Shown: one piece after another, positions 1 to 46,976 of the stretch | Position numbering within the stretch: position 1 is the stretch's first letter | Layout of the letters: every line of letters starts with the position of its first letter | From: Escherichia coli | GTDB lineage: Bacteria; Pseudomonadota; Gammaproteobacteria; Enterobacterales; Enterobacteriaceae | Reading direction: 5' to 3' (one strand) | Length of the DNA: 64,000 bases | NCBI RefSeq assembly: GCF_030013595.1 | Contig: NZ_CP122768.1 | The notes under the pieces: model-generated | Database searches by the model: none | The model's input: the letters and a program-made list of their open reading frames with translations, nothing else | What the model was told of the DNA's origin: nothing | Made by a program: the position numbers and the translations under genes

Positions 1-1389
1 CGTGCTCGCATCCTCAAGCGCCACGGCGGACGCAATATCCTCTGCCCGTTTTGCCGCTGTCTCGGCGCGCGTTGCCGCGGATTCCGCCGTACTTTTGCTC
101 TGTGCTGCCGCCGTCGCACTGCCAGCTGCCTCTGTCGCCTTCGTGGATGCTGTCGTGGCGCTGCCCTTCGCTGCGGACGCTTGTCTGGTCGCCTCATCTT
201 TTGAAGCAGACGCCGATGATGCCGATGACGCCGCCGAACTGGCGGACGATGCCGCTGCCGTTTTTGAGGATTCTGCACGGGTTTCCGACGCTTTCGCGTT
301 CGTTTCGGATGTCTTCGCTGCGGAAGCTGACCTCGCTGCTGCCGTGGCCTGCTCAGTGGCTTCGCCAGCCTTCGTTGTGGCTGTTGAAGCGGATGATGCG
401 GCGCTTTCTGCCGATTTTCCGGCGGCGGTGGCACTGGCTGAGGCCTGCCCGGCACTTGTTGACGCGGCACTGGCAGACGACGCAGCCGCTGTTTTTGAGC
501 CTGCCGCAGCTGAGGCGCTCTGTCCCGCTGCCGTCTCAGAAGACCTGGCGTTCGTCTCGGACGTTTTTGCCGCCTTCGCGGAATTTCCTGCCGCCGTTGC
601 CGAGGAAGCTGCGCTACTGGCGCTCAAGGATGCGTTCGTTTCTGATGATTTCGCTGCCTCTTTTGAGGCCGCCGCATCCCGGGCTGAGGTGGCAGCTTCT
701 GACGCCTTTGTGGTCGCTGCGGATGCAGAAGTGGCTGCAGATTTTTGTGACGCTGCCGCATTCGTTTCTGACGTTTTCGCCGCAGCGGCACTGGTGGCCG
801 CCGCGCTTTTTGAGGACTCTGCAGCGGCAGCACTTTTTGATGCTTCAGTGGCCTTTGTTGATGCCGTTCCTGCGCTGGAAGACGCTGACTGAGCCGACGA
901 AGCGGCCTGTCCGGCTGACGTGCTGGCTGCGCGTGCTGAGCCTGCAGCATCAGTCGCATGGGTTGCCGCCTCACGGGCAGATGTGCCGGCATCGCCGGCT
1001 GACTTCTTCGCGGCTGCCGTGTTCTGTGCCACCACGGACGCGTTACGCGCCACCTCTTCCACCATCAGCTCAAAACGGCGCAGTGCCTCCGGACGGGCAT
1101 CATCCTCCGTCATGGCACCGAGAAAATCATTCAGCGTACCGGGTCGGGAATCTTCATACACTGTGATAGTCCCGGCATGTGACGGCGGGAATCCTTCCAC
1201 CAACAGAATAACGCTGTACTGACCGTACTCAACGTCCATACTGTAACGCCCGGCTTCATCCGGATTTTCTGAGGCCAGCGTGTTCACCACCACCGTGGTG
1301 CTGTTACGTTTTGCTTTCAGCTGGATTGTGCAGTTCTGTACCGGTTTTCCTGTGCCGTCTTTCAGTACACCTGAAATCTTTACTGCCAT
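1..1389 (-). CDS. stf: side tail fiber protein Stf, N-terminal ~463 codons; 3' end runs off the window edge
   Basis: Reverse-strand reading from ATG near 1389 (MAVKISGVLKDGTGKPVQ...) stays open to position 1; Ala/Ser-rich repeats as in λ Stf; absent from ORF track because no stop lies in the window. Confidence 0.75.
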   Translation of the reverse strand, partial: MAVKISGVLKDGTGKPVQNCTIQLKAKRNSTTVVVNTLASENPDEAGRYSMDVEYGQYSVILLVEGFPPSHAGTITVYEDSRPGTLNDFLGAMTEDDARPEALRRFELMVEEVARNASVVAQNTAAAKKSAGDAGTSAREAATHATDAAGSARAASTSAGQAASSAQSASSSAGTASTKATEASKSAAAAESSKSAAATSAAAAKTSETNAAASQKSAATSASAATTKASEAATSARDAAASKEAAKSSETNASLSASSAASSATAAGNSAKAAKTSETNARSSETAAGQSASAAAGSKTAAASSASAASTSAGQASASATAAGKSAESAASSASTATTKAGEATEQATAAARSASAAKTSETNAKASETRAESSKTAAASSASSAASSASSASASKDEATRQASAAKGSATTASTKATEAAGSATAAAQSKSTAESAATRAETAAKRAEDIASAVALEDAST

Positions 1390-21252: not shown

Positions 21253-21945
21253 ATGTCCAGAGAAGGAACGTTAGATTTATTGCAAGAAGTTGAAGAAACC
21301 GTTGAAATATTAAAAGATACGCAACAAATAAAACCAGTAAAGGTTAAATCAATACTTGAAAATTTAAGAAGCGCATTAGAATACGTTGCGAATGATAGTT
21401 ATGAAAAACATACCACTAACCAATCAACCCCTCGGCCAAAAATTTATTTCCCATACGGCGAGAAAAAATTTTTAGATGCTTTCTTTATTAAAAAATTAAA
21501 CTGCCAGCAACCTGAATTATCTCCATTATATGCAGTTTTTGTTTCAATCCAAGACTATCAAACTGGTAATAACTGGCTTGGAATGATGTGTAACCTCACG
21601 AACGAAGCAAAACATAGGCAACCAATCCCATTGAGTGAAGATAGTATTGTTCGAGGAATAGATGTTAATATCAATGGGTTTGGATTAATTAAGGCAGATG
21701 CTACATCAAAAATCATTTTCAGAGATAATTTCACCAATGGACAGAGAATTGAAGACTTCACCATTGAAAATGGTAAAGTTGAAAAATCAGGGAACGGAAT
21801 ACCCATCAATATTAACATGACCGAAGAGAAAAAAATAAGATTCCACGGTACAGATTATGAGGTTATTCCTTTTGTAGAGTTATGTCTAAAAGAAATAAGA
21901 GATTTTGTTAATGAAGCATATGAAATTTTAGATGCCATTGAATAA
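21253..21945 (+). CDS. hypothetical protein (230 aa), AT-rich accessory gene in the bor slot
   Basis: Long ORF with GGAG RBS, candidate TTCAAC-N17-CATAAT promoter upstream, strongly AT-rich codons, opposite strand to lysis genes; no motif recognised. Confidence 0.7.
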   Translation: MSREGTLDLLQEVEETVEILKDTQQIKPVKVKSILENLRSALEYVANDSYEKHTTNQSTPRPKIYFPYGEKKFLDAFFIKKLNCQQPELSPLYAVFVSIQDYQTGNNWLGMMCNLTNEAKHRQPIPLSEDSIVRGIDVNINGFGLIKADATSKIIFRDNFTNGQRIEDFTIENGKVEKSGNGIPININMTEEKKIRFHGTDYEVIPFVELCLKEIRDFVNEAYEILDAIE

Positions 21946-22040: not shown

Positions 22041-22562
22041 TCAATTGTAATTTGATGTCCTCACCGACTCATAAACGCGCTCACACGTCATTCCAGCCCG
22101 GTAGCTTTCGTCAGATCGCTCAGCATAATATCGAGCTTCTTCTGCAAGGCGGCCGAGCATGTCGGCGAGCACTGCGGCGTCGGCTCCGGCTGTTTTGCTT
22201 CTGACGGCAGCGGCAAGATCTGCGGTGTGCTTTGCGGCGTCCAGGCGGGCGGCAAGCTTTGTTGCTTCGGTGCGCAGCTGGTTAACAGTGGCAGACAGGC
22301 CAGCAGCAGTGGCAGCAGATTTAGCTGCTTGTGCTTGTGCATCTTTTACAGCCTCATCACGGGCAATTATGCGCCCTTGTTCAATCATGCGGGCTGCGGT
22401 CTGCGCGTTCGCTGTTTGCGATGATTCCGCGCTGTCACGTTCCGCCCACTTTTTTTCCCAACCGCGGCTACACCATATATTTCCAGCGATAAACGCACTG
22501 GTCACTAGTACCGCGGCAACAATAAGCTGGGAGCACAGGCTCACTGGTCTATCCCCCAGCAC
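22041..22562 (-). CDS. Rz: i-spanin Rz
   Basis: N-terminal TM segment, Ala-rich coiled-coil periplasmic region, overlaps 3' end of endolysin gene. Confidence 0.75.
22088..22342 (-). CDS. Rz1: o-spanin Rz1 (lipoprotein) embedded in +1 frame of Rz
   Basis: Signal peptide with lipobox LLTSC, proline-rich mature region, fully nested within Rz. Confidence 0.7.
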
Positions 22563-23074
22563 GTCAACGCGCTTTCCTGATCACGGCGAATAACCTGACC
22601 GTAACAGTTATTTGAACGAATGCGGCAATCACGCCCCCTGTCCTTAATCCACCAGCGAATCGCCTCGCATGCACCTTTACGATCACCAGCATTCAGCCGC
22701 TTATAAAACGTCGACGGAAAACACTTACCGGGGCCAATGTTATAGGGACAAAATGACGCGATACCCGCTTTCTGCGGTTCGGTCAGTGGTACTTTAATAT
22801 TGCGCTCCACCCATGCCAGCGCCTTATCACGTTCAATGGCGTTCACACGGTTGCATTTTTCCCTAGACAACTTCATGCCGGGAACAACAGGCTTACCGTC
22901 CACCAGAATGGCACCACGGCAGATGGTCCAGATACCAGTACCATCACGGTATGCCGTGGTGTGGTTACCTTCTTTTTCGTCCAGAAACTGGTCGAGAATA
23001 TCAGGCGCAGGCGCACCGACGGCAATCAGTGCCAGAACGGCAGCTGACAGGCCGTATTTGATTTTTGCATTCAT
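22541..23074 (-). CDS. R: SAR endolysin (GH24 lysozyme with N-terminal signal-anchor-release domain)
   Basis: E-x8-D-x5-T catalytic triad ([16 protein letters not shown]), Gly/Ala-rich weakly hydrophobic N-terminus; resembles DLP12 RrrD. Confidence 0.9.
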
Positions 23075-23201
23075 GGATATTTATCAGGATTTATCAGTTT
23101 CTAATCTATAGATATGTTAAGCACTCAGCCCGTCAGTGGTGGATACTGGCGTATGTAATAAAGGGGGGATGGCTGATTACCTCTGATAAGGGAATGTAAC
23201 T

Positions 23202-23498
23202 ATGAACGGTATAGATCCATTCAAACCAATCAGTAAGCAACTTGATGTGGTATTACCACAACTGATAAAACACGACGACCTTCTGGATAAAGTGTTGCCT
23301 TTTTATATTGCTGTTACCGCAAAATTATCAGGTAAAACTCGAGAAGAGGTTCTCAAATATAACATGCTGGCTTTAGAAACAATTTTTGGCTCAGAAAAAG
23401 CGGGAAAATCACCCAAAGAGCTGGCAGAATCTCAATTTGCTTATATGACAAATATAAGAGTATCCGAAATCTTTGATAAGCTACCAGACATTGAATAA
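23202..23498 (+). CDS. hypothetical protein (98 aa), AT-rich, opposite strand inside lysis cassette
   Basis: ORF with AT-rich composition between endolysin and holin genes; no motif recognised. Confidence 0.55.
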   Translation: MNGIDPFKPISKQLDVVLPQLIKHDDLLDKVLPFYIAVTAKLSGKTREEVLKYNMLALETIFGSEKAGKSPKELAESQFAYMTNIRVSEIFDKLPDIE

Positions 23499-23499
23499 T

Positions 23500-23525
23500 T
23501 TCTAAGCGGCAGTAATGCCGCTTTA
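23500..23525. terminator. hairpin between convergent 98-aa and 72-aa genes (possibly bidirectional terminator)
   Basis: agcggca-gtaa-tgccgct stem-loop flanked by T/A runs. Confidence 0.45.
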
Positions 23526-23741
23526 TATTTTTTCAGCCAAATTTTTCAAGAACTGTTTGGCATGTTTTACCGCAGTAACTTCATAATAATCCAAGCCAGC
23601 TCCTTCAAGTCGCTCAAGGGTGATGTTCAGATCAAAAATTTCACCGGCAAAATGTTCTTTGTCCTGTAACGTTAAGATTACCGTAACTTTATTCTCAAAA
23701 TTGCGGATCCCTTTCACAATCAGTTCATAGTTTTGAGTCAT
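23523..23741 (-). CDS. small lysis-region protein (72 aa), YdfR/DUF1327-like by recollection
   Basis: Co-oriented ORF immediately downstream of holin gene; family assignment from memory only. Confidence 0.6.
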   Translation of the reverse strand: MTQNYELIVKGIRNFENKVTVILTLQDKEHFAGEIFDLNITLERLEGAGLDYYEVTAVKHAKQFLKNLAEKI

Positions 23742-23745
23742 TGAA

Positions 23746-23961
23746 TTACTCTCCCCGTGCAGCCTTTCGTCTGTCTTCTCTGATTTTGAAATACAGATTT
23801 GTCAGATAAGTCAAAAAGCCCAGAACTAGACTTCCCAGCACACCAATTGCAGCCCACTGTGACGGACTGACCTGATCCAACCACTGCAAAAACCAGTATC
23901 CCGCACTACCAGCGGATGTTCCGTAGGCAATGCCAGTTGAGATTTTGTCCATTGATTTCAT
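23746..23961 (-). CDS. S: class II holin (S21/EssD-type pinholin, 71 aa, dual-start MKSM)
   Basis: Two TM segments, dual start motif, C-terminal basic tail; matches phage 21 S / DLP12 EssD. Confidence 0.9.
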
Positions 23962-24079
23962 AGCAACGCCTCCGCCAGTAACGGATTGCGTAGTTCTTAT
24001 ATTGGGAAGGGAGAAAAAGAAGACCGCAGCATAACTATCACTGATGAATTCAGGATAGCCAGTGGCTACGGCTCAGTTA

Positions 24080-24155
24080 TGGTGCTGGTTAACGGACTTG
24101 AACCGCTACCCATTCGCTTACAAGGCGACCGCTCTACCATTGGAGCTAAACCAGC
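24080..24155 (-). tRNA. tRNA-like gene, anticodon UGU (Thr) by hand folding
   Basis: 76 nt cloverleaf: acceptor GCTGGTT/AACCAGC, D-arm GCTC…GAGC, anticodon loop CTTGTAA, T-loop TTCAAGT, CCA end. Confidence 0.55.
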
Positions 24156-24160
24156 ATATT

Positions 24161-24235
24161 TGGCGGGACAGCGTGGACTCGAACCACGATAAGAAGGTTA
24201 ACAGCCTTCCGTAATGACCTTTATACGACTGACCC
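24161..24235 (-). tRNA. second tRNA-like element, anticodon GUU (Asn?) with imperfect acceptor/D arm; possibly a pseudo-tRNA
   Basis: T-arm CGTGG-TTCGAGT-CCACG, anticodon stem GAAGG/CCTTC loop CTGTTAA, CCA end; one acceptor mismatch. Confidence 0.4.
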
Positions 24236-24237
24236 AA

Positions 24238-34380: not shown

Positions 34381-34452
34381 GCGCGGCGTTACCGCATACC
34401 AATAACGCTTCACTCGAGGCGTTTTTCGTTATGTATAAATAAGGAGCACACC

Positions 34453-34617
34453 ATGCAATATGCCATTGCAGGGTGGCCTGTTGCTGGCTGCCCTTCCGAA
34501 TCTTTACTTGAACGAATCACCCGTAAATTACGTGACGGATGGAAACGCCTTATCGACATACTTAATCAGCCAGGAGTCCCAAAAAATGGATCAAACACTT
34601 ATGGCTATCCAGACTAA
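34453..34617 (+). CDS. cIII: CIII (FtsH inhibitor)
   Basis: 54 aa MQYAIAGWPVAGCPSESLLERITRKLRDGWKRL… as λ CIII. Confidence 0.9.
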   Translation: MQYAIAGWPVAGCPSESLLERITRKLRDGWKRLIDILNQPGVPKNGSNTYGYPD

Positions 34618-34804: not shown

Positions 34805-35101
34805 ATGAACGCTTATTACATTCAGGATCGTCTTGAGGCTCAGAGCTGGGCGCGTCACTACCAGCAGATCGCCCGTGAAGAGAAAGAGGCAGAACTGGCA
34901 GACGACATGGAAAAAGGCCTGCCCCAGCACCTGTTTGAATCGCTATGCATCGATCATTTGCAACGCCACGGGGCCAGCAAAAAAGCCATTACCCGTGCGT
35001 TTGATGACGATGTTGAGTTTCAGGAGCGCATGGCAGAACACATCCGGTACATGGTTGAAACCATTGCTCACCACCAAGTTGATATTGATTCAGAGGTATA
35101 A
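34805..35101 (+). CDS. gam: Gam (RecBCD inhibitor), 98-aa short form only
   Basis: λ Gam core sequence from [21 protein letters not shown]; upstream extension is in another frame. Confidence 0.85.
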
Positions 35102-35106
35102 AACGG

Positions 35107-35892
35107 ATGAGTACAGCACTCGCAACGCTGGCAGGGAAGCTGGCTGAACGTGTCGGCATGGATTCTGTCGACCCACAGGAACTGATCACCACTCTTCGCC
35201 AGACGGCATTTAAAGGTGATGCCAGCGATGCGCAGTTCATCGCATTGTTGATCGTCGCCAACCAGTACGGCCTTAATCCGTGGACGAAAGAAATTTACGC
35301 CTTCCCTGATAAGCAGAACGGCATCGTTCCGGTGGTGGGCGTTGATGGCTGGTCCCGCATCATCAATGAAAACCAGCAGTTTGATGGCATGGACTTTGAG
35401 CAGGACAATGAATCCTGTACATGCCGGATTTACCGCAAGGACCGTAATCATCCGATCTGCGTTACCGAATGGATGGATGAATGCCGCCGCGAACCATTCA
35501 AAACTCGCGAAGGCAGAGAAATCACGGGGCCGTGGCAGTCGCATCCCAAACGGATGTTACGGCATAAAGCCATGATTCAGTGTGCCCGTCTGGCCTTCGG
35601 ATTTGCTGGTATCTATGACAAGGATGAAGCCGAGCGCATTGTCGAAAATACTGCATACACTGCAGAACGCCAGCCGGAACGCGACATCACTCCGGTTAAC
35701 GATGAAACCATGCAGGAGATTAACACTCTGCTGATCGCCCTGGATAAAACATGGGATGACGACTTATTGCCGCTCTGTTCCCAGATATTTCGCCGCGACA
35801 TTCGCGCATCGTCAGAACTGACACAGGCCGAAGCAGTGAAAGCTCTTGGATTCCTGAAACAGAAAGCCTCTGAACAGAAGGTGGCTGCATGA
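35107..35892 (+). CDS. bet: Bet (Redβ single-strand annealing protein)
   Basis: 261 aa λ Bet-like. Confidence 0.9.
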
Positions 35893-38837: not shown

Positions 38838-39056
38838 ATGTACTTGACACTTCAGGAGTGGAACGCTCGCCAGCGACGCCCAAGAAGCCTTGAAACAGTT
38901 CGTCGATGGGTGCGCGAATGCAGGATATTCCCTCCTCCGGTTAAGGATGGAAGAGAATATCTGTTCCACGAATCAGCGGTAAAGGTTGACTTAAATCGAC
39001 CAGTAACAGGTAGCCTTTTGAAGAGGATCAGAAATGGGAAGAAGGCGAAGTCATGA
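38838..39056 (+). CDS. xis: excisionase Xis
   Basis: 72 aa λ Xis-like (MYLTLQEWNARQRRPRSLETVRRW…). Confidence 0.9.
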   Translation: MYLTLQEWNARQRRPRSLETVRRWVRECRIFPPPVKDGREYLFHESAVKVDLNRPVTGSLLKRIRNGKKAKS

Positions 39057-40104
39057 GCGCCGGGATTTACCCCCTAACCTTTATATAAGAAACAATGGAT
39101 ATTACTGCTACAGGGACCCAAGGACGGGTAAAGAGTTTGGATTAGGCAGAGACAGGCGAATCGCAATCACTGAAGCCATACAGGCCAACATTGAGTTATT
39201 TTCAGGACACAAACACAAGCCTCTGACAGCGAGAATCAACAGTGATAATTCCGTTACGTTACATTCATGGCTTGATCGCTACGAAAAAATCCTGGCCAGC
39301 AGAGGAATCAAGCAGAAGACACTCATAAATTACATGAGCAAAATTAAAGCAATAAGGAGGGGTCTGCCTGATGCTCCACTTGAAGACATCACCACAAAAG
39401 AAATTGCGGCAATGCTCAATGGATACATAGACGAGGGCAAGGCGGCGTCAGCCAAGTTAATCAGATCAACACTGAGCGATGCATTCCGAGAGGCAATAGC
39501 TGAAGGCCATATAACAACAAACCCTGTCGCTGCCACTCGCGCAGCAAAATCAGAGGTAAGGAGATCAAGACTTACGGCTGACGAATACCTGAAAATTTAT
39601 CAAGCAGCAGAATCATCACCATGTTGGCTCAGACTTGCAATGGAACTGGCTGTTGTTACCGGGCAACGAGTTGGTGATTTATGCGAAATGAAGTGGTCTG
39701 ATATCGTAGATGGATATCTTTATGTCGAGCAAAGCAAAACAGGCGTAAAAATTGCCATCCCAACAACATTGCATGTTGATGCTCTCGGGATATCAATGAA
39801 GGAAACACTTGATAAATGCAAAGAGATTCTTGGCGGAGAAACCATAATTGCATCTACTCGTCGTGAACCGCTTTCATCCGGCACAGTATCAAGGTATTTT
39901 ATGCGCGCACGAAAAGCATCAGGTCTTTCCTTCGAAGGGGATCCGCCTACCTTTCACGAGTTGCGCAGTTTGTCTGCAAGACTCTATGAGAAGCAGATAA
40001 GCGATAAGTTTGCTCAACATCTTCTCGGGCATAAGTCGGACACCATGGCATCACAGTATCGTGATGACAGAGGCAGGGAGTGGGACAAAATTGAAATCAA
40101 ATAA
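39034..40104 (+). CDS. int: tyrosine integrase Int
   Basis: 356 aa λ Int-like with C-terminal R…HxxR…Y catalytic region. Confidence 0.9.
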   Translation: MGRRRSHERRDLPPNLYIRNNGYYCYRDPRTGKEFGLGRDRRIAITEAIQANIELFSGHKHKPLTARINSDNSVTLHSWLDRYEKILASRGIKQKTLINYMSKIKAIRRGLPDAPLEDITTKEIAAMLNGYIDEGKAASAKLIRSTLSDAFREAIAEGHITTNPVAATRAAKSEVRRSRLTADEYLKIYQAAESSPCWLRLAMELAVVTGQRVGDLCEMKWSDIVDGYLYVEQSKTGVKIAIPTTLHVDALGISMKETLDKCKEILGGETIIASTRREPLSSGTVSRYFMRARKASGLSFEGDPPTFHELRSLSARLYEKQISDKFAQHLLGHKSDTMASQYRDDRGREWDKIEIK

Positions 40105-40177
40105 TGATTTTATTTTGACTGATAGTGACCTGTTCGTTGCAACAAATTGATAAGCAATGCTTTTTTATAATGCCAAC

Positions 40178-40192
40178 TTAGTATAAAAAAGC
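40178..40192. other. attL: attL core (15-bp GCTTTTTTATACTAA, reverse orientation) at prophage/chromosome junction
   Basis: ttagtataaaaaagc flanked by λ P'-arm sequence on the int side and attB-like CCTGC on the ybhC side. Confidence 0.8.
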
Positions 40193-40238
40193 AGGCTTCA
40201 ACGGATTCATTTTTCTATTTCATAGCCCGGAGCAACCT

Positions 40239-41522
40239 GTGAACACATTTTCAGTTTCCCGTCTGGCGCTGGCATTGGCTTTTGGCGTGACGCTGACCGC
40301 CTGTAGCTCAACACCGCCCGATCAACGTCCTTCTGATCAAACCGCGCCTGGTACCTCTTCTCGCCCGATTCTGTCGGCAAAAGAAGCGCAGAATTTCGAT
40401 GCTCAACACTATTTTGCATCCCTGACACCAGGTGCGGCAGCGTGGAATCCTTCCCCGATTACCCTGCCTGCGCAACCTGACTTTGTTGTCGGCCCGGCGG
40501 GTACTCAAGGTGTAACGCATACCACGATTCAGGCGGCGGTAGATGCGGCAATTATCAAGCGCACCAACAAGCGCCAGTATATTGCCGTGATGCCTGGTGA
40601 GTATCAGGGAACGGTGTATGTCCCTGCCGCTCCGGGTGGAATTACTCTGTACGGTACAGGTGAAAAACCGATTGATGTGAAGATTGGGCTTTCCCTTGAT
40701 GGTGGCATGAGCCCTGCCGACTGGCGTCACGACGTCAACCCGCGCGGCAAATATATGCCAGGTAAACCGGCGTGGTATATGTACGATAGCTGCCAGAGCA
40801 AACGCAGCGACAGTATCGGCGTTCTCTGCTCTGCGGTCTTCTGGTCACAAAACAATGGCCTGCAACTGCAAAACCTGACCATCGAAAACACGCTGGGCGA
40901 TAGCGTAGATGCGGGTAACCATCCGGCGGTGGCACTGCGTACTGATGGCGACAAAGTGCAGATCAATAACGTCAACATTCTCGGTCGTCAGAACACCTTC
41001 TTTGTCACCAACAGCGGTGTGCAGAACCGTCTGGAAACCAACCGTCAGCCGCGTACTCTGGTGACCAACAGTTACATTGAAGGGGATGTGGATATCGTTT
41101 CTGGTCGCGGCGCAGTGGTGTTCGATAACACCGAATTCCGCGTGGTGAACTCACGTACTCAGCAAGAAGCGTATGTGTTTGCACCGGCAACACTGTCTAA
41201 CATCTATTACGGTTTCCTCGCCGTAAACAGCCGTTTCAATGCTTCCGGTGATGGCGTGGCGCAACTGGGCCGCTCGCTGGATGTTGATGCCAATACCAAC
41301 GGTCAGGTGGTGATCCGTGATAGCGCCATCAACGAAGGTTTTAACACAGCCAAACCGTGGGCTGATGCGGTGATCTCTAATCGTCCGTTTGCGGGTAACA
41401 CCGGCAGCGTTGATGATAACGACGAAGTACAGCGTAATCTGAATGACACTAACTACAACCGCATGTGGGAATACAATAACCGCGGCGTGGGTAGCAAAGT
41501 GGTTGCAGAGGCGAAGAAGTAA
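40239..41522 (+). CDS. ybhC: YbhC (pectinesterase-fold outer-membrane lipoprotein / acyl-CoA thioesterase)
   Basis: 427 aa, lipoprotein signal (LTAC), known neighbour of attλ in E. coli. Confidence 0.85.
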   Translation: MNTFSVSRLALALAFGVTLTACSSTPPDQRPSDQTAPGTSSRPILSAKEAQNFDAQHYFASLTPGAAAWNPSPITLPAQPDFVVGPAGTQGVTHTTIQAAVDAAIIKRTNKRQYIAVMPGEYQGTVYVPAAPGGITLYGTGEKPIDVKIGLSLDGGMSPADWRHDVNPRGKYMPGKPAWYMYDSCQSKRSDSIGVLCSAVFWSQNNGLQLQNLTIENTLGDSVDAGNHPAVALRTDGDKVQINNVNILGRQNTFFVTNSGVQNRLETNRQPRTLVTNSYIEGDVDIVSGRGAVVFDNTEFRVVNSRTQQEAYVFAPATLSNIYYGFLAVNSRFNASGDGVAQLGRSLDVDANTNGQVVIRDSAINEGFNTAKPWADAVISNRPFAGNTGSVDDNDEVQRNLNDTNYNRMWEYNNRGVGSKVVAEAKK

Positions 41523-41552
41523 GAGCTATTAACTATTTGCCGGATGCGGCGT

Positions 41553-42309
<757 letters not shown>

Positions 42310-42413
42310 ATCAGCATACTTGTCCTTAGCCTTCTGCAGTGACAGCTGGTAGTACAGCGTGCTTCTGGCCAGCCCTGCAGCCTTTAACAGGTCAGACTGG
42401 CAGTGTCCGCACC

Positions 42414-42944
42414 TCAGGCTCCGGATGACTTTCGTTTTTTCTCCAGCTCCTGGCGCTTTTTTTCCAGGAGATGCTCCTGCATGGCTTTCAGATATGCATT
42501 TTCTGCGCGAAGATAACGCAGCTCATTCTTCATCTCTTCCGGCGTCATGTTTGCCTCGTTTTCATGGGTATCATCAGAACGGGTCATGCTTTTCTCCTTC
42601 CTGCGCCTGATAAAGGCCTCATTACCAGATTTGCGGTAGCCTTTTATCCAGTTTTTAACCGTGTTGTGGCTGGGAATGTTAAACCGGGCAGCTACCCGGG
42701 GTAGAGACTCAGAATGCCCGAGAGCATAAAGAACCACGCAAAGTTTATCTTCAGGAGAATAGCTACGCTTGTGTCTGCAATCCAGTGCACGAGGACCGTG
42801 AAGAAGAAAAAGATTAATCCAGTGTGAGAGGCTGGTGTGAGAAAGTTGAAAGAGTTTTGCCGTAGAAATGATGCCTGCATGACCAGCCAGGTAATGATTT
42901 ACAGCGGCAAGTTTTACTTCAAATGAATGTTTCATAAACTGCAC
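42414..42944 (-). CDS. IS3-family transposase OrfA (HTH + leucine zipper); A-run slippery site near its 3' end for OrfAB fusion
   Basis: 176 aa; GAAAAAAAG-type slippery run at ~42420-42450. Confidence 0.8.
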   Translation of the reverse strand: MQFMKHSFEVKLAAVNHYLAGHAGIISTAKLFQLSHTSLSHWINLFLLHGPRALDCRHKRSYSPEDKLCVVLYALGHSESLPRVAARFNIPSHNTVKNWIKGYRKSGNEAFIRRRKEKSMTRSDDTHENEANMTPEEMKNELRYLRAENAYLKAMQEHLLEKKRQELEKKRKSSGA

Positions 42945-42986
42945 CTTCAGATGTCAGATTATGTCCAACATTTGGGGTGCAGTTCA

Positions 42987-43085
42987 GTAAACGCCTTATC
43001 CGGCCTACGGTTCGATGCGATTTGTAGGTCGGATAAGATGCGCCAGCATCGCATCCGACAATAAGTGCCGAATGCGACCTACATT
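42987..43085. repeat. REP/BIME palindromic units (the same cluster the IS interrupted; left remnant at 41538-41554)
   Basis: gccttatccggcctac and gtaggtcggataag…gcatccgaca palindromic units. Confidence 0.6.
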
Positions 43086-43098
43086 CACATGGCGCTTT

Positions 43099-45360
43099 TT
43101 ACATCTGACGGTTTTTATTGAAGTTAATCAAACTACCCGCCTTGATAATCTCGCGCTCTTCGGCCGTCAGGCTTTCCATGTAAAGCGTAATTTCCGTTAC
43201 CGGCGCATCTTCATGGATCACATAACCTTTAAACGTCGTACCCGGATTATCCAGCGCTGCTTTAATGCCAGGGATGTAAATGTAATCCCCCACTTCAAAC
43301 GTTGGTGCTTCCGCCATCTGCAGCGGTAACATCCCCCAGTTGATGACGTTAGAACGGTAGCGTTTAGTCGCGTACTCCTCGGCAATATTCGCCAGACCGC
43401 CAATCACACGCTGGCAGCTCGCCGCCTGCTCACGCGCAGAACCATCGCCTGGTTTCACCGCATAGACCATGCTGCCAATTTCAGTTTGCAGCGGATCAAT
43501 ATGCTCCTGACCAGCAATCTGCTTAATGCGCGCAAACACCTCTGTCAGCTCGCTGACATTCCCCGCCAGACGCTGATTTTCCAGCTCAGCAGTCGCTTTA
43601 CTTCTGCCAACATAACCTGGATCGCGGCGTGACAGGGTAAACTCCGCCAGACCAATCGGATTTGAACGATAAGAAGAGGTTTCACCGGAAGGGATCAGTT
43701 CGTCGGTGGTGGTCACTTCGTCGAGGATCTTCGAGCACACTTTGAGGACGATATTGTCAGTTAGCGCCCCCAATTCTGGCCAGTCTTTTATGTTCGGTCC
43801 GTAAATCAATGGTTGCTGGGTCGCCCCTTTCACAAAGCCCTGATAAACACGGTTTTTATACGGAGTTACATCGAAGGCGTACTCCGGTACGTTGTCCCAG
43901 CAATCAAGTTCGCTGGCAGAGGTTAAATAGCCACCGTTTGCCGCAGTCGCAGCGATAGAACGAGCGTCCATCAACGCCACCGCTGACATCTGCCCATTGG
44001 CTGGCTTAGAGCCTTCGCGGTTCGGGAAGTTACGCGTGGTGTGGCGAATACTCAAACCGTTGTTGATTGGCGTATCGCCCGCGCCAAAGCATGGGCCGCA
44101 GAACGCGGTTCTGATGATTGCGCCTGCGCCAATCAAATCTGCTACCACGCCTTTTTTGGCTAAATCCATAAACACCGGCTGTGATGACGGGTAAACCGCT
44201 AACGAGAAGGTGTCATTGCCACAGGATTGACCGCGCAGCGCATTCGCCGCCGCGATGACGTTTTCATAGTTACCGCCAGAACAGCCCGCGATAATCCCCT
44301 GCTGCACTTTCAGGCGACCATTTTCCACTTTATCCAGCAGCGAGAGTTTGGCTTTACCGTGCGCCACGCGTTCGGACTCAATTTCAATCTCACGCAGAAT
44401 ATCGGTCAGGTTCTGGTTCAGCGTGTCGATTTCATATACGTTGCTCGGGTGGAACGGCAGCGCAATCATTGGTTTGATGGCGCTTAAATCAACGCTGATG
44501 CAGCCATCGTAGTATGCCATCGGTTGAGGGTTAAGCTGGCAGTAATCCTGGCCGCGTCCGTGCAGCGCCAGCCAGTTATGGACTTCTTCATCGGTTTGCC
44601 AGACAGAACTTAAACAGGTCGTTTCAGTGGTCATAACGTCAACGCTGTTACGGAAATCGGTAGAGAGCGCAGCAACACCGGGACCTACGAATTCCATCAC
44701 TTTGTTTTTGACGTAGCCGTTTTTGAACACGGCACCGATGATAGCCAGCGCCACATCCTGTGGCCCCACATACGGCGCAGGCTTTCCGGTCAAATGCACC
44801 GCAACAACTCCCGGATAGTCGATATCCCATGTGTCATTAAGCAGCTGTTTTACCAACTCACCGCCACCCTCACCGACTGCCATTGTCCCTAATGCACCGT
44901 AACGGGTGTGGCTGTCTGACCCGAGGATCATTTTGCCGCCGCCTGCCATCATCTCACGCATATATTGATGGATGACCGCAATATGCGGAGGCACAAAAAT
45001 ACCGCCATAACGCTGAGCCGCCGATAAACCAAAAACATGGTCATCACCGTTAATGGTGCCGCCGACGGCGCAAAGTGAGTTATGGCAGTTGGTCAGCACA
45101 TACGGCAGCGGGAAACGTTCCATACCGGACGCTTTAGCGGTCTGTACAATACCAACAAAGGTAATATCGTGAGAGGCTAATGAATCAAACTTAATTTTAA
45201 GTTTATCCATATTTCCGGACGTATTATGAGAAGAGAGAATAGACCAGGCAATAGTGCCTTTTTTTGCTTCTTCTTTTTTAATTTCGCCGGTGAAATGTTC
45301 TTCGGCAATTATTTCGTTATTACTGGCGAGAAACACGCCTTTTTCAGATAACTTGATCAT
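43099..45360 (-). CDS. ybhJ: YbhJ aconitase-family protein
   Basis: 753 aa from ATG at MIKLSEKG (track start is an upstream GTG); aconitase-like Fe-S ligand region. Confidence 0.85.
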
Positions 45361-45410
45361 CAAATGCTCCAGATATCTGCGCACCGTGAAGTGCGCAGAA
45401 AGATAATAAA

Positions 45411-45540
45411 TGGATATACTCTAAATAATTCGAGTTGCAGGAAGGCGACAAGCGAGTGAATCCCCAGGAGCTTACATAAGTAAGTGACTGGGGTGAGCGA
45501 ACGCAGACGCAGCACATGCAACTTGAAGTATGACGAGTAT
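45411..45540. repeat. ERIC/IRU repetitive element
   Basis: Contains gtgaatccccaggagcttacataagtaagtgactggggtgagcg core. Confidence 0.65.
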
Positions 45541-45542
45541 AT

Positions 45543-46976
45543 TTACAGCATGTTCCAGCCGATCAGCATATTCCACCACCACACGCCGAGGGTGATATGC
45601 ACCAGGAAGGTTAATATCGTCAGTACCGCACCGACCAACCACCAGGATTTAATATCGTTGTAACCCACGCCAAAGATGACCGGACCTGCCGCGCCGCCAT
45701 AGTGAGTAACCATGCCGCCATAGGAGTTAGAGAACAACAGTGCCAGCGCGGTTAACATTAACGGTGCGCCGGAGACGTTCGCCAGCATGGCAAATACCGG
45801 TAACATAGCAACGATATAGGCACTACCGGAAGCGAAGAAATAACGAACGATGATGCTGAGGAAAATAATAACGAAGAAAGCAACGTTACCGTGACCATCA
45901 AATGCCAGGTTATTTTTAAAGACTTCAGCTAACCATTCGAAAAATTTAACTTTCGATAATAAGGAGCTTAAGCCGATAATACCGCCGTACCAGATTAAGG
46001 TATTCCATCCGCCTTTATTTTTAACCACGTCTTCCCAGGTAACGATACCCAGCAGCAGCATGGTCGCCATAACAACGATTGCCACGGTGGATTCATCAAC
46101 CCCCAGAGACTTACTGAAAATCCAGCCCAGTAGCGCCAGCACAAAGACACCGAGCAGCATTTTTTCGCGGATTTTCATCGGTCCCAGTTCGGCAAGGCCC
46201 GCTTTGGCGATGGTTTTGTTATCCACCTTCTTAATTTCTGGCGGATACATGGTGTAAATCACCAGCGGGGTGACCAGCAGCATAATGATGCCCGGCAATC
46301 CGGCTGCCAGCGCCCATCCACCCCAGCTAATTTGCAGGTGCAGAATGTCGTTGATCATTTTCAGCGCCAGAATGTTCCCCGCCATTGCGGTAAAGAACAT
46401 ATAGCTGGTGGTTTTGGTGACCATGTAAATGGACATCATCAGGTAATGTCCGACACGACGCGGACTTTTTTCCGGTTCGGACCCCAAAGCCACCGCCACG
46501 CTGTTGATGATCGGTAACACAATGCCGCCCGCACGCGCGGTGTTAGACGGTGTTGCCGGAGCCAGTACCAGATCGAGGAATACCGTAACGTAACCCAGAC
46601 CCAGCGTGGTGTTACCGATTTTACCAATCAGCAGATAGGCTATACGTTTACCTAAGCCGGTGGTCACAAATGCGGCGCTTAAGGTAAACGCCGAGAACAC
46701 CAGCCAGGTGGTACCTGAAGAGTAACCGCTTAATACGGCGGTGGTCTTAAACGCACCGTCGGATAAGTTACCGACCACCACCATTGAGGCAGCAACGGCA
46801 ATTAACAGTACGACAGGTTCCGGGAAAGGCTTGATAACCAGCCCCACAATGGCCGCCAGGTAAATACCAAAAAGCACCCACGCCAGTTCGCTTAATCCTG
46901 CCGGAGCTGGCATAAAGCCAATAATACATGGGATCGCTAATATCAGAATTAGCTTCCATAACGATTTTTTATTCAT
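45543..46976 (-). CDS. ybhI: YbhI DASS-family anion transporter
   Basis: 477 aa polytopic membrane protein. Confidence 0.85.
   Translation of the reverse strand: MNKKSLWKLILILAIPCIIGFMPAPAGLSELAWVLFGIYLAAIVGLVIKPFPEPVVLLIAVAASMVVVGNLSDGAFKTTAVLSGYSSGTTWLVFSAFTLSAAFVTTGLGKRIAYLLIGKIGNTTLGLGYVTVFLDLVLAPATPSNTARAGGIVLPIINSVAVALGSEPEKSPRRVGHYLMMSIYMVTKTTSYMFFTAMAGNILALKMINDILHLQISWGGWALAAGLPGIIMLLVTPLVIYTMYPPEIKKVDNKTIAKAGLAELGPMKIREKMLLGVFVLALLGWIFSKSLGVDESTVAIVVMATMLLLGIVTWEDVVKNKGGWNTLIWYGGIIGLSSLLSKVKFFEWLAEVFKNNLAFDGHGNVAFFVIIFLSIIVRYFFASGSAYIVAMLPVFAMLANVSGAPLMLTALALLFSNSYGGMVTHYGGAAGPVIFGVGYNDIKSWWLVGAVLTILTFLVHITLGVWWWNMLIGWNML

What the first reader, a model, noticed from the sequence alone, without database searches (positions are those of the whole stretch)
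24080..24236. Two tRNA-like genes inserted between tR' and the holin gene
λ-identical sequence (pR', qut, tR') stops right after the tR' T-run. Immediately downstream, on the late-transcript strand, are two cloverleaf-like elements of 75-76 nt. The first folds well, with anticodon loop CTTGTAA giving UGU (Thr). The second has a good T-arm and anticodon stem (loop CTGTTAA, GUU, Asn) but an imperfect acceptor and D arm, so it may be a pseudo-tRNA. Phage tRNAs in the Q-S interval are known from Stx phages, where they compensate codon bias of adjacent cargo.
Basis: seen in the sequence. Interest (0 to 1): 0.5.

Follow-up and report, generated by a model that had tools for sequence, protein, structure and literature searches.

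The report
Known lambdoid-phage tRNA-Asn/tRNA-Thr cassette
Two genuine tRNA genes (Asn-GUU and Thr-UGU) sit just after the late terminator of a lambda-like prophage; this is a well-known portable cassette, and recent experiments on a near-identical tRNA-Thr show it replaces a host tRNA that an anti-phage nuclease destroys.

Summary
ARAGORN and Rfam both call tRNA-Asn(GUU) at 24161-24235 and tRNA-Thr(UGU) at 24080-24155, on the late-transcript (-) strand, starting 4 nt after the tR' T-run.

The cassette is already known. It is annotated in phage 21, Sf6, SfI, BTP1 and HK446, and matches in 716 of 5,426 complete E. coli genomes. The window's Asn is identical to phage 21's. Its Thr differs at one base (G26 versus A26).

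tRNA-Asn is not a pseudogene. Its stems are kept by compensatory changes across alleles, and its two mismatches are conserved family traits.

Codon compensation for adjacent cargo is not supported. The ACA excess lies in early genes, and Asn codons are depleted in late genes.

The best explanation is counter-defence. Two 2025-26 studies show that the phage 21/HK446 tRNA-Thr resists P2 OLD and replaces the cleaved host tRNA-ThrU. The window's copy keeps both resistance determinants, and the prophage encodes Gam, the OLD trigger.

Thr(UGU) and Asn(GUU) are also two of the three main targets of the PARIS nuclease AriB. Both window tRNAs lack the U39 of AriB's site. A counter-defence role for the Asn tRNA is my inference and is untested.

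Novelty: already known. Interest: modest.

The parts
24510..25133 (-). Lambda-type late antiterminator gene Q (207 aa)
   Evidence: 1 aa difference from lambda Q; phrog_127, anti-termination protein Q-like
24439..24467 (-). pR' late promoter (-35 TTGACT, 17-nt spacer, -10 TAAATT)
   Evidence: Promoter scan; lies within the lambda-homologous leader. It is the only promoter-like site upstream of the tRNAs.
24238..24432 (-). Lambda-type late leader (6S RNA/qut region) ending in the tR' hairpin (arms ~24295-24288 and 24255-24247) and T-run (24245-24240)
   Evidence: 6 differences in 272 nt from lambda 44510-44781; alignment A3. The start coordinate is inferred from the -10 position and from knowledge of the lambda 6S RNA.
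24161..24235 (-). tRNA-Asn(GUU), 75 nt, CCA encoded, discriminator G73; conserved U4.U69 and U13.U22; anticodon stem GAAGG/CCUUC (A28-U42, C39)
   Evidence: identical to the phage 21, Sf6 and HK446 allele; covariation; motif analysis
24156..24160 (-). 5-nt spacer (AAUAU) between the two tRNAs
   Evidence: Sequence
24080..24155 (-). tRNA-Thr(UGU), 76 nt, CCA encoded, G1-C72 and C2-G71; anticodon stem GUCGC/GCGAA with G27.A43 mismatch (4-bp stem), U28-A42, G39
   Evidence: differs from the experimentally tested phage 21/HK446 allele only at position 26; covariation; motif analysis
24018..24079 (-). ~62-nt 3' flank that travels with the cassette, including a small hairpin (TAGCC-ACT-GGCTA)
   Evidence: Shared with HH97, HK446, Kapi1 and mEp506 prophages that have a different holin downstream. 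Homology with essD-type lysis cassettes in E. coli genomes starts only at ~24008.
23746..23961 (-). S21-type class II holin (pinholin), 71 aa, the first protein gene after the tRNAs
   Evidence: Contiguous homology with phage 21 from the T-run through S21, 24 differences in 500 nt; phage 21 annotation
34805..35101 (+). gam (GamS form, 98 aa), a RecBCD inhibitor and the known trigger of P2 OLD; context, not part of the cassette
   Evidence: Translation; full-length match to lambda Gam structures 5mbv and 2uuz, E = 2.5e-61; bet and exo follow

Best explanation
This is the known phage-21/Sf6-type tRNA-Asn(GUU)-tRNA-Thr(UGU) cassette, placed as the first element of the late operon of a lambda-like prophage integrated at att-lambda. 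pR' transcripts normally stop at tR', 4 nt before tRNA-Asn. Once Q makes RNA polymerase terminator-resistant, the two tRNAs are transcribed ahead of the lysis and virion genes. Host enzymes (RNase P at the 5' ends, nucleases at the 3' ends) then cut them out; the CCA ends are encoded. tRNA-Thr(UGU) acts as a nuclease-resistant replacement for the single-copy host tRNA-ThrU. Toprim-family anti-phage tRNases destroy that host tRNA: P2 OLD, which is triggered by lambda-type Gam, and PARIS AriB. The replacement keeps ACA codons readable. tRNA-Asn(GUU) most likely plays the same role for host tRNA-Asn, a secondary target of the same nuclease family. A modest supply benefit for ACA/ACG codons may add to this. 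Shown elsewhere by experiment: protection and cleavage resistance of the phage 21/HK446 tRNA-Thr allele. Shown here: gene integrity, conservation, retained resistance determinants, position relative to the terminator, and presence of gam. Inferred: Q-gated expression and processing, resistance of the window's G26 allele, and the whole role of tRNA-Asn.
For: The tRNAs are real and conserved. The cassette is annotated in phage 21, Sf6 and others.

PMC12445682 reports that P2-OLD kills by cutting host tRNA-ThrU at a paired CNG motif (positions 28-30 and 40-42). Phage 21 tRNA-Thr protects cells and resists cleavage in vitro. Resistance requires both an altered CNG motif (C28U/G42A in Thr21) and a shortened anticodon stem.

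bioRxiv 10.64898/2026.07.10.737580 reports that the HK446 tRNA-Thr gives strong counter-defence against OLD for HK97 and HK542.

The window's Thr differs from that tested allele only at position 26. It retains U28-A42 and G27.A43. 104 of 105 loci keep both traits. The prophage encodes Gam, Bet and Exo.

PMC12409363 reports that AriB's main targets are Lys(UUU), Thr(UGU) and Asn(GUU), cut at 40|41 next to U36-A-A-U39. A U39->A change abolishes cleavage of tRNA-Lys, and T5 Thr and Asn variants are needed for full rescue. Host thrU reads UAAUCA and host asnT reads UAAUCC at 36-41. The window's Thr reads UAAGCG and its Asn reads UAACCU. All 149 Thr and 168 Asn loci lack U39. T5 Thr and Asn also lack U39.

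Host asnT has the paired CNG motif; the window's Asn has lost it, as have 110 of 128 loci.

Asn and Thr are tightly linked: 133 of 136 Thr-anchored loci have Asn. In 135 of 160 loci the cassette directly abuts a hairpin plus T-run, across several leader types. No other promoter-like site lies between pR' and the tRNAs.
Against: The window's G26 allele has not been tested.

The tRNAs sit in the late operon, whereas OLD is triggered early, by Gam or replication. Early genes and Q itself (5 ACA codons in 207) must be translated before the tRNAs are made, unless tR' read-through gives a basal level.

In the 2026 preprint, plasmid-borne phage tRNA-Thr did not rescue lambda itself and did not relieve OLD toxicity in recB cells. 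In the NAR paper rescue was only partial.

The cassette lacks tRNA-Lys(UUU), AriB's prime target, so it could not neutralise the studied PARIS system alone.

For tRNA-Asn, the anticodon stem is a full 5 bp, while the OLD study found that motif change alone was insufficient for tRNA-ThrU. Asn is not among the preferred OLD targets listed in the preprint. Klebsiella-type Asn alleles keep the CNG motif. Absence of U39 is not rare among tRNAs, so it is weak evidence.

No expression data for these tRNAs were found in the literature searched. PMC8022706 states it is unknown whether they are excised from the late mRNA.
Confidence: 0.6

Rival explanations
1. Classical codon supplementation. The tRNAs raise the supply of tRNAs for codons that the phage uses more than the host does, speeding late protein synthesis. 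This is not exclusive of counter-defence.
For: ACA is 13.6 per 1000 in the prophage versus 7.4 in the host flank (p = 7e-5). Late genes use ACG at 27.2 versus 13.8 (p = 3e-8), and a UGU tRNA may also read ACG. SfI authors reported ACA at 17.3 versus 7.1 (PMC3636060). Phage L authors noted that 24 of 25 capsid Asn codons are AAC (PMC8022706).
Against: The ACA excess is in early genes (~20 per 1000), which are expressed before the late-operon tRNAs. Late genes (9.4) do not differ from host (7.4; p = 0.22). The late ACG excess is part of a general G-ending bias: CGG, GGG and AGG are equally or more enriched and have no tRNA here. Asn codons are depleted in late genes (36.0 versus 45.9 per 1000, p = 0.0035), and the host has four asn genes. 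The most under-served codons of this prophage (AGA, AGG, CGA, CGG) are not covered. Over-expressing host thrU gave no protection in the OLD assays, so sequence rather than dose matters there.
Confidence: 0.25
2. tRNA-Asn is a decaying pseudo-tRNA or passive hitch-hiker. It is retained only because it is physically linked to tRNA-Thr or supplies a processing site.
For: It has two stem mismatches (U4.U69, U13.U22) and a lower Rfam score than Thr. No codon-usage rationale exists. SfI authors called its significance unclear.
Against: 18 of its 21 stem pairs are Watson-Crick, one is G-U (G50.U64 in the T stem) and two are mismatches, and it scores 55 bits. The identical sequence is present in 84 loci. 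Five stem pairs show compensatory double changes, while both mismatches are kept in 14 of 17 and 17 of 17 alleles, which indicates purifying selection. Identity elements for AsnRS (GUU anticodon, G73) and the encoded CCA are intact. Asn also occurs without Thr in ~23 of 128 loci, with other partners. Real remodelling in this slot looks different, as in the phage L 'Leu(UAA)' gene.
Confidence: 0.08
3. Compensation for a host tRNA gene disrupted by prophage integration, as suggested for HK446 in the 2026 preprint.
For: Many lambdoid and P22-like phages integrate into tRNA genes such as thrW and argU. The idea is raised in bioRxiv 10.64898/2026.07.10.737580.
Against: This prophage's integrase abuts ybhC. 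The flank order ybhC-(IS3)-ybhJ-ybhI matches the K-12 ybhC|ybhB att-lambda site, which is not a tRNA gene. ARAGORN finds no other tRNA in the window. Phages that use thrW rebuild it on integration, and thrW is Thr(CGU), not UGU or Asn. The phage tRNAs are only 71% and 63% identical to thrU and asnT.
Confidence: 0.03
4. RNA-processing punctuation. The tRNAs mainly serve as RNase P/RNase E entry sites that detach the 6S leader and set the 5' end and stability of the late mRNA.
For: The position directly after the terminator and before the first late gene is constant in 135 of 160 loci. A short 3' flank with a hairpin travels with the cassette.
Against: Lambda and many relatives (for example phage Dewey) express late genes without any tRNA here. 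Processing would not require conserved anticodons, identity elements or specific anticodon-stem changes. It would also not explain why the same two anticodons recur.
Confidence: 0.04

Closest known systems
Phage 21 late-region tRNA-Asn/tRNA-Thr pair (OL657228, CPT_21_64 and CPT_21_65); 'tRNA-Thr21' of Govande et al., NAR 2025
   Same: tRNA-Asn is 75/75 identical and tRNA-Thr is 75/76 identical. Order, the 5-nt spacer, the position directly after the late-leader terminator and the S21 pinholin downstream are the same. Homology is contiguous from the T-run through S21.
   Different: Upstream is the lambda-type Q/pR'/qut/tR', not Q21 with its short leader. The window's Thr has G26 where phage 21 has A26. 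The lysis cassette has extra ORFs between holin and endolysin.
HK446, Kapi1, mEp506 and phiv205-1 phages, and the E. coli HH97 prophage: lambda-type tR' joined to the same cassette
   Same: The same lambda-tR'/tRNA junction, at 99-100% identity over 221 nt. HH97 has the identical G26 Thr allele. The HK446 tRNA-Thr was shown to counter OLD.
   Different: These phages have a lambda-type holin after the ~62-nt flank. The window has an S21-type holin. The lambda-leader plus S21 combination was unique among ~115 loci and absent as a contiguous block from 5,426 complete E. coli genomes.
Sf6, SfI, BTP1, ST64T and L (P22-like and other lambdoid phages) tRNA genes downstream of gene 23/Q
   Same: The same cassette at the same position, annotated since Sf6 and phage 21.
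   Different: The virion modules differ. In L and ST64T the Thr slot holds a remodelled Thr-derived gene annotated as Leu(UAA).
Stx-phage (933W-type) tRNA genes between Q and stx (ileZ-argN-argO, from general knowledge)
   Same: tRNA genes placed at the start of the Q-dependent late transcript of a lambdoid prophage.
   Different: The anticodons differ (Ile and Arg rare-codon tRNAs), the sequences are unrelated, and they are classically linked to rare codons. Not examined here.
Nuclease-resistant tRNAs of lytic phages (T5 and T4 Lys/Thr/Asn variants that neutralise PARIS and OLD)
   Same: The same anticodons (Thr-UGU, Asn-GUU) with substitutions at the same anticodon-stem positions. T5 Thr has U28 and G39; T5 Asn has G39, U40 and G27.A43. 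The logic of replacing cleaved host tRNAs is the same.
   Different: Here it is a minimal two-gene set in a temperate phage, gated by Q antitermination, without tRNA-Lys. The sequences are not closely related to the T5 genes.

Membership tests
Bacterial-type tRNA gene (Rfam RF00005) | Cloverleaf scoring above the curated threshold and called by an independent tRNA finder | tested here: met
   61.2 and 55.3 bits against a gathering score of 29; ARAGORN calls both
Bacterial-type tRNA gene (Rfam RF00005) | Stems maintained by compensatory substitutions across homologues | tested here: met
   Thr: 96% of cells paired, 12 pairs with double changes, 0 of 500 shuffles reach this; pairs 3:70, 5:68, 6:67, 49:65, 51:63 vary with pairing kept. 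Asn: pairs 5:68, 6:67, 7:66, 28:42, 29:41 likewise. My first structure string for Asn was mis-registered and is superseded.
Bacterial-type tRNA gene (Rfam RF00005) | Aminoacylation identity elements. Thr: G1-C72, C2-G71, G35, U36. Asn: G34, U35, U36, G73. (Lists taken from general knowledge.) | tested here: met
   All are present in the sequences. Charging itself was not tested.
Bacterial-type tRNA gene (Rfam RF00005) | Expression, processing and aminoacylation in vivo | not testable with these tools
   Functional rescue by the phage 21/HK446 Thr allele implies that allele is charged and decodes ACA. There are no data for the G26 allele or for Asn.
Phage 21/Sf6-type late-operon Asn-Thr tRNA cassette | Sequence identity to the reference cassette | tested here: met
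   Asn 100% and Thr 75/76 to phage 21; 98.5-99.5% over 206-221 nt to phage 21, HK446 and Kapi1
Phage 21/Sf6-type late-operon Asn-Thr tRNA cassette | Position directly after the late-leader intrinsic terminator, upstream of the holin, on the late strand | tested here: met
   tR' T-run at 24245-24240, tRNA-Asn G1 at 24235, S21-type holin at 23961. The same junction TTTTTT(T)ATTT|GGG occurs in 135 of 160 loci.
OLD-resistant phage tRNA-Thr(UGU) (Govande et al. 2025) | UGU anticodon | tested here: met
OLD-resistant phage tRNA-Thr(UGU) (Govande et al. 2025) | Paired CNG motif (C28-G42 with G30-C40) altered | tested here: met
   The window has U28-A42, the C28U/G42A change described for tRNA-Thr21; host thrU has C28-G42
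OLD-resistant phage tRNA-Thr(UGU) (Govande et al. 2025) | Shortened anticodon stem | tested here: met
   The G27.A43 mismatch leaves 4 bp; it is invariant in 21 of 21 alleles
OLD-resistant phage tRNA-Thr(UGU) (Govande et al. 2025) | Resists OLD cleavage and rescues cells or phage | not testable with these tools
   Shown for the A26 allele of phage 21 and HK446. The window's G26 allele is untested.
AriB (PARIS)-resistant phage tRNA | Isoacceptor of an AriB target (Lys-UUU, Thr-UGU or Asn-GUU) | tested here: met
   Both window tRNAs match target anticodons
AriB (PARIS)-resistant phage tRNA | Substitution at or around the U36-A-A-U39-C40|N41 site | tested here: met
   Thr reads UAAGCG and Asn reads UAACCU, against host UAAUCA and UAAUCC. 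U39->A abolished cleavage of tRNA-Lys.
AriB (PARIS)-resistant phage tRNA | Demonstrated resistance to AriB, or rescue of PARIS-restricted infection | not testable with these tools
   Shown only for T5 variants. The paper notes that distal determinants also matter, so the site change alone does not prove resistance.
OLD-resistant tRNA, applied to tRNA-Asn | Both an altered CNG motif and a shortened anticodon stem | tested here: not met
   The CNG motif is lost (A28-U42), but the stem is a full 5 bp (GAAGG/CCUUC). For tRNA-ThrU, motif change alone did not confer resistance. I therefore do not file tRNA-Asn as OLD-resistant.

The most novel reading that the evidence does not exclude
The Asn(GUU)-Thr(UGU) pair is a dedicated two-tRNA counter-defence module of temperate lambdoid phages. 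Its composition mirrors the shared target set of Toprim anticodon-stem nucleases (PARIS AriB: Lys, Thr-UGU, Asn-GUU; P2 OLD: Thr-UGU first). Under this reading tRNA-Asn, whose purpose has been called unclear since its first descriptions and which both recent OLD papers overlook, is a nuclease-resistant replacement for host tRNA-Asn. Its conserved oddities (C39, A28-U42, U4.U69) would be evasion features. Placement immediately after tR' would make the module Q-gated, so that resistant tRNAs appear exactly when bulk late translation starts.
Probability: 0.4. Interest if true: 0.5.

Novelty: already known. Interest (0 to 1): 0.3.

Why it matters
The genes themselves are routine annotation. They are present in about one in eight complete E. 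coli genomes and have been described since the early phage 21 and Sf6 work. The value here is interpretive. The textbook reading, codon compensation, fits this locus poorly. Recent experiments on a tRNA one base different show a counter-defence role against P2 OLD, the classic anti-lambda exclusion system. This prophage carries both the OLD trigger (gam) and the antidote tRNA. The companion tRNA-Asn, long unexplained, matches a second target of the same nuclease family and carries changes at the cleavage site. That gives a cheap, direct experiment. If confirmed, it would show that temperate phages carry minimal, portable, antitermination-gated anti-tRNase kits that recombine freely between Q and lysis modules.

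Tried and rejected
1. Pseudo-tRNA reading of tRNA-Asn: rejected on allele frequency and covariation.

2. My first pair count for Asn used a structure string shifted by one column in the D and anticodon arms and gave meaningless low pairing. I replaced it with an explicit per-stem parse.

3. MFE folding of single sequences did not recover the cloverleaf for Thr and gave weak z-scores (-1.5 and -1.7). This is uninformative, as is usual for unmodified tRNA sequences.

4. Codon compensation for adjacent morons: rejected.

5. Att-site compensation: rejected, because the prophage is at ybhC|ybhB.

6. I looked for an independent promoter between tR' and the tRNAs and found none.

7. I looked for defence genes near the cassette. 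PADLOC gave nothing convincing for the neighbouring ORFs, and NCBIfam gave nothing.

8. The supplementary tables of the OLD paper, which list cleaved tRNAs including Asn, are not held. The original phage 21 paper (PMC207295) is not held either.

9. I used ORF 34833-35147 as 'gam'. It is in a different frame from the true gam (34805-35101). The 'gamS' codon counts are invalid, and the early-left gene set contains this ORF instead of gam, with negligible effect.

10. Testing co-occurrence of the cassette with P2 old or PARIS across genomes could not be done with the listing limits of the tools.
Full report
**Observation**

ARAGORN finds exactly two tRNA genes in the 64-kb window. They are tRNA-Thr(UGU) at 24080-24155 and tRNA-Asn(GUU) at 24161-24235, both on the - strand. 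Rfam's tRNA model scores them 61.2 and 55.3 bits against a gathering score of 29, with E = 8e-11 and 3e-9 for the whole window.

On the late-transcript strand the order is:
- Q (25133-24510)
- pR' (-35 at 24467, -10 ending at 24439)
- the lambda-type leader, ending in the tR' hairpin and T-run (24245-24240)
- tRNA-Asn
- a 5-nt spacer
- tRNA-Thr
- 118 nt of non-coding sequence
- an S21-type holin (23961-23746)

Lambda homology stops at window 24238, which is lambda 44781, inside the T-run. The leader differs from lambda at 6 of 272 positions and Q at one residue. 'Lambda-identical' is therefore nearly right but not exact.

**What it is**

The pair is a known cassette. The same two genes, in the same order and place, are annotated in phage 21, Sf6, SfI, BTP1, Kapi1 and mEp506. 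They are present in HK446 and many Salmonella P22-like phages: 70 phage records match. In RefSeq, 716 of 5,426 complete E. coli genomes have a match to the region, 343 of them over at least 80% of it, and the listed hits are annotated as tRNA-Asn and tRNA-Thr. Published descriptions include SfI (PMC3636060), phage L (PMC8022706), epsilon34 and P22-like prophages (PMC2629481) and the phage 21 genome (PMC9119081). The phage 21 record cites PMID 1704887 for the late region.

The window's tRNA-Asn is identical to that of phage 21, Sf6 and HK446. Its tRNA-Thr differs from theirs only at position 26 (G versus A) and is identical to the copy in E. coli HH97.

**Mosaic anatomy**

The window follows lambda through tR' and switches within a shared TTTTTTAT run to phage-21-type sequence. 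That sequence continues unbroken through both tRNAs into S21, with 24 differences in 500 nt. Other prophages (HH97, HK446, Kapi1) share the lambda junction, the cassette and about 62 nt of 3' flank, and then carry a lambda-type holin.

Among about 115 loci with the cassette, I found at least 12 upstream and 12 downstream sequence contexts in 21 combinations. The window's combination occurred once. No complete E. coli genome holds the whole 1.6-kb arrangement contiguously.

In 135 of 160 loci the tRNA-Asn directly follows a hairpin plus T-run through the same TTTTTT(T)ATTT|GGG junction, whatever the leader type. The array is variable:
- Asn-Thr is the most common form (95 of ~128 Asn-anchored loci).
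- Other forms are Asn alone, Asn-Phe-Thr-Arg(UCU) in Klebsiella phages, Gly(UCC)-Asn and Asn-Met(CAU).
- In the reciprocal Thr-anchored scan, 133 of 136 loci have Asn upstream.

**Are both genes functional?**

Both encode CCA and carry the identity elements I know for ThrRS (G1-C72, C2-G71, G35, U36) and AsnRS (GUU anticodon, G73).

For Thr, the cloverleaf on an alignment with Klebsiella-phage and host genes is 96% paired with 12 doubly changed pairs. None of 500 shuffles reached this.

Across 17-21 distinct alleles from more than 120 viral contigs, stems are kept through Watson-Crick-preserving double changes:
- Asn: pairs 5:68, 6:67, 7:66, 28:42 and 29:41.
- Thr: pairs 3:70, 5:68, 6:67, 49:65 and 51:63.

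The oddities are fixed family traits. Asn U4.U69 occurs in 14 of 17 alleles, Asn U13.U22 in 17 of 17, and Thr G27.A43 in 21 of 21.

The window's Asn is the dominant allele (84 loci). Real remodelling in this slot looks different. The phage L 'tRNA-Leu(UAA)' is a Thr-derived gene with a rebuilt anticodon arm, scoring 42 bits with no ARAGORN call. The pseudo-tRNA suggestion is therefore rejected.

The phage genes are only 71% (Thr versus thrU) and 63% (Asn versus asnT) identical to host genes, so they are not recent captures.

**Codon usage**

| Gene set | ACA per 1000 | ACG per 1000 | Asn codons per 1000 |
|---|---|---|---|
| Whole prophage | 13.6 | not computed | 39.9 |
| Early genes | ~20 | ~10-11 | ~38-51 |
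| Late structural genes | 9.4 | 27.2 | 36.0 |
| Host flank | 7.4 | 13.8 | 45.9 |

- ACA is enriched in the prophage overall (p = 7e-5), but the excess is in early genes. Late structural genes do not differ from host (p = 0.22). The two adjacent AT-rich ORFs hold only 4 ACA codons.
- Late genes are ACG-rich (p = 3e-8). This is part of a general G-ending bias that equally affects CGG, GGG and AGG, for which no tRNA is supplied.
- Asn codons are depleted in late genes (p = 0.0035), and the host has four identical asn genes.

Codon compensation is thus at best a partial account for Thr and no account for Asn. This agrees with the SfI authors' remark that the significance of tRNA-Asn is unclear.

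**Counter-defence**

Govande et al. (NAR 2025, PMC12445682) showed that P2 OLD, the effector of classical P2-lambda interference, is activated when Gam inhibits RecBCD. [quoted passage not shown] Phage tRNA-Thr(UGU) genes rescue the cells. The authors tested phage 21's own tRNA ('tRNA-Thr21'). It protected cells and resisted cleavage in vitro. Resistance needs both a CNG alteration (C28U/G42A in Thr21) and a shortened anticodon stem.

A 2026 preprint (10.64898/2026.07.10.737580) found independently that the HK446 tRNA-Thr(UGU) gives strong counter-defence against OLD for HK97 and HK542. It did not do so for lambda, and it did not relieve toxicity in recB cells.

The phage 21 and HK446 alleles are identical to each other, and the window's differs only at position 26, outside the stem. 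The window's tRNA keeps U28-A42 and G27.A43, whereas host thrU has C28-G42, G30-C40 and five pairs. 104 of 105 loci keep both traits.

The prophage encodes GamS (34805-35101; full-length match to lambda Gam structures, E = 2.5e-61), Bet and Exo. It therefore carries the trigger as well as the antidote.

**The second tRNA**

Belukhina et al. [quoted passage not shown] All are cut between positions 40 and 41, next to a shared U36-A-A-U39 motif. A U39->A change abolishes cleavage of tRNA-Lys. T5's Lys, Thr and Asn variants together neutralise PARIS.

The window's cassette encodes exactly two of these three isoacceptors.

| tRNA | Bases 36-41 |
|---|---|
| Host thrU | UAAUCA |
| Host asnT | UAAUCC |
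| Window Thr | UAAGCG |
| Window Asn | UAACCU |

All 149 Thr and 168 Asn loci lack U39. T5's Thr (U28, G39) and Asn (G39, U40, G27.A43) show changes at the same positions.

Host asnT also carries the paired CNG motif and A37, and it was used as an OLD substrate in kinetic comparisons. The window's Asn has lost the motif (A28-U42), as have 110 of 128 loci. Klebsiella-type alleles keep it.

Neither OLD paper mentions the tRNA-Asn that lies 5 nt upstream of the tRNA-Thr they tested. The preprint calls HK446's Thr a 'single' tRNA.

A counter-defence role for tRNA-Asn is my inference and has several weaknesses:
- Its anticodon stem is a full 5 bp, and for ThrU a motif change alone was insufficient.
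- Asn is not among the preferred OLD targets in the preprint.
- Lack of U39 is not rare among tRNAs.
- The cassette lacks tRNA-Lys.

**Mechanism proposed**

*Shown by sequence.* The tRNAs begin 4 nt after the tR' T-run. No other promoter-like site lies downstream of pR'. CCA is encoded.

*Inferred from lambda biology.* pR' transcripts end at tR' unless Q modifies RNA polymerase. Read-through then yields a precursor from which RNase P and 3' nucleases release the tRNAs ahead of the lysis and virion mRNAs.

*Shown experimentally for the A26 allele, inferred here.* tRNA-Thr resists OLD and replaces the cleaved tRNA-ThrU, restoring ACA decoding. The 21 late structural genes contain 61 ACA codons.

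*Inferred.* The same holds against AriB, and for tRNA-Asn.

A timing problem remains. OLD is triggered early, while the tRNAs are late. Q itself has 5 ACA codons. Basal read-through of tR' from the constitutive pR' could mitigate this, but it is untested. PMC8022706 states that it is not known whether these tRNAs are excised from the late mRNA.

**Rival explanations**

- Codon supplementation may contribute, but it fits poorly (above).
- Att-site compensation fails. The integrase abuts ybhC, and the flank ybhC-(IS3)-ybhJ-ybhI matches the K-12 ybhC|ybhB att-lambda locus, which is not a tRNA gene. No other tRNA is in the window.
- A pure RNA-processing role would not explain conserved anticodons and identity elements. 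Relatives such as phage Dewey lack tRNAs at this position.

**Verdict**

The feature is already known, and the tRNA-Thr function was recently demonstrated on an allele differing at one base. What remains open, and is cheaply testable, is the role of the linked tRNA-Asn and whether the pair forms a Q-gated kit against Toprim tRNases.

Noticed in passing
window 22541-23961: The lysis cassette is not phage-21-like after the holin. Between the S21-type holin (23746-23961, -) and the SAR-type endolysin (22541-23074, -) lie a 72-aa DUF1327-like ORF (23523-23741, -) and a 98-aa ORF on the opposite strand (23202-23498, +; phrog_25324, unknown function). This essD/DUF1327/rrrQ-like layout is common in E. 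coli prophages at 80-95% identity.
   Followed up: partly
window 21253-21945 (+): An AT-rich (34% GC) 230-aa ORF lies on the strand opposite to the late genes, between Rz and nu1. It matches phrog_13652 (unknown function) over its full length, has no NCBIfam hit, and has only a negligible PADLOC hit. It is a typical moron of unknown function.
   Followed up: partly
window 31931-32788 (+): A 285-aa ORF lies directly downstream of the cI-like repressor (31102-31803), in the position of rexAB in lambda. It matches phrog_5783 (unknown function), with weak PADLOC hits to HEC-09 and an NYN-family nuclease (E = 2e-4 and 1e-3). It may be a prophage-expressed defence gene.
   Followed up: partly
window 34805-35147: The true gam frame (GamS, 98 aa) is 34805-35101, ending 5 nt before bet. 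Only the short GamS form is open, because stops interrupt the upstream part of the long form. A longer overlapping ORF in another frame (34833-35147) matches an unnamed PHROG (phrog_27890) and is probably a recurrent mis-annotation.
   Followed up: yes
window 34440-34498 (+): Rfam finds the lambda cIII thermoregulator element (RF01804, 88.5 bits), confirming a lambda-type early-left operon with kil, gam, bet and exo downstream.
   Followed up: no
window 24080-24155 and 24161-24235: Both tRNAs have family-specific departures from canonical tRNA features. tRNA-Thr has C14 in the D loop, never A14 in 21 alleles, although A14 is near-universal. tRNA-Asn has a conserved pyrimidine-pyrimidine mismatch at 4:69, kept through compensatory changes at neighbouring pairs, and a 4-nt variable loop. 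Whether these affect recognition by nucleases is unknown.
   Followed up: partly
L007 1281-1352 (phage L); same slot as window 24080-24155: The 'tRNA-Leu(UAA)' annotated in phage L and ST64T shares the acceptor stem of the cassette's tRNA-Thr but has a 4-nt deletion and a rebuilt anticodon arm. It scores 42 bits in Rfam and is not called by ARAGORN. It is either a recoded derivative or a decaying copy.
   Followed up: partly
L004, L005 (Klebsiella phages); L080-L084; L031, L071: The same post-Q slot holds other arrays around the same tRNA-Asn family: Asn-Phe-Thr-Arg(UCU), Gly(UCC)-Asn and Asn-Met(CAU). Gly(UCC) and fMet(CAU) are listed as preferred OLD targets in the 2026 preprint, although the phage Gly allele keeps the CNG motif.
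   Followed up: partly
window 39034-46976: The prophage integrase (39034-40104) abuts ybhC (40239-41522), the att-lambda side of the K-12 ybhC|ybhB junction. An IS3-family element (41587-42944) is inserted between ybhC and ybhJ in the host flank.
   Followed up: yes
window 25964-28012 (-): The nin region carries an Ant-like anti-repressor (25964-26686) and a DNA methyltransferase (27425-28012), neither of which is present in lambda.
   Followed up: no
window 1-1166: The first kilobase has 63% GC and a strong AT skew (-0.39). It probably belongs to a side-tail-fibre gene on the - strand that runs off the window start, downstream of a Lom/OmpX-like gene (1454-2053).
   Followed up: no
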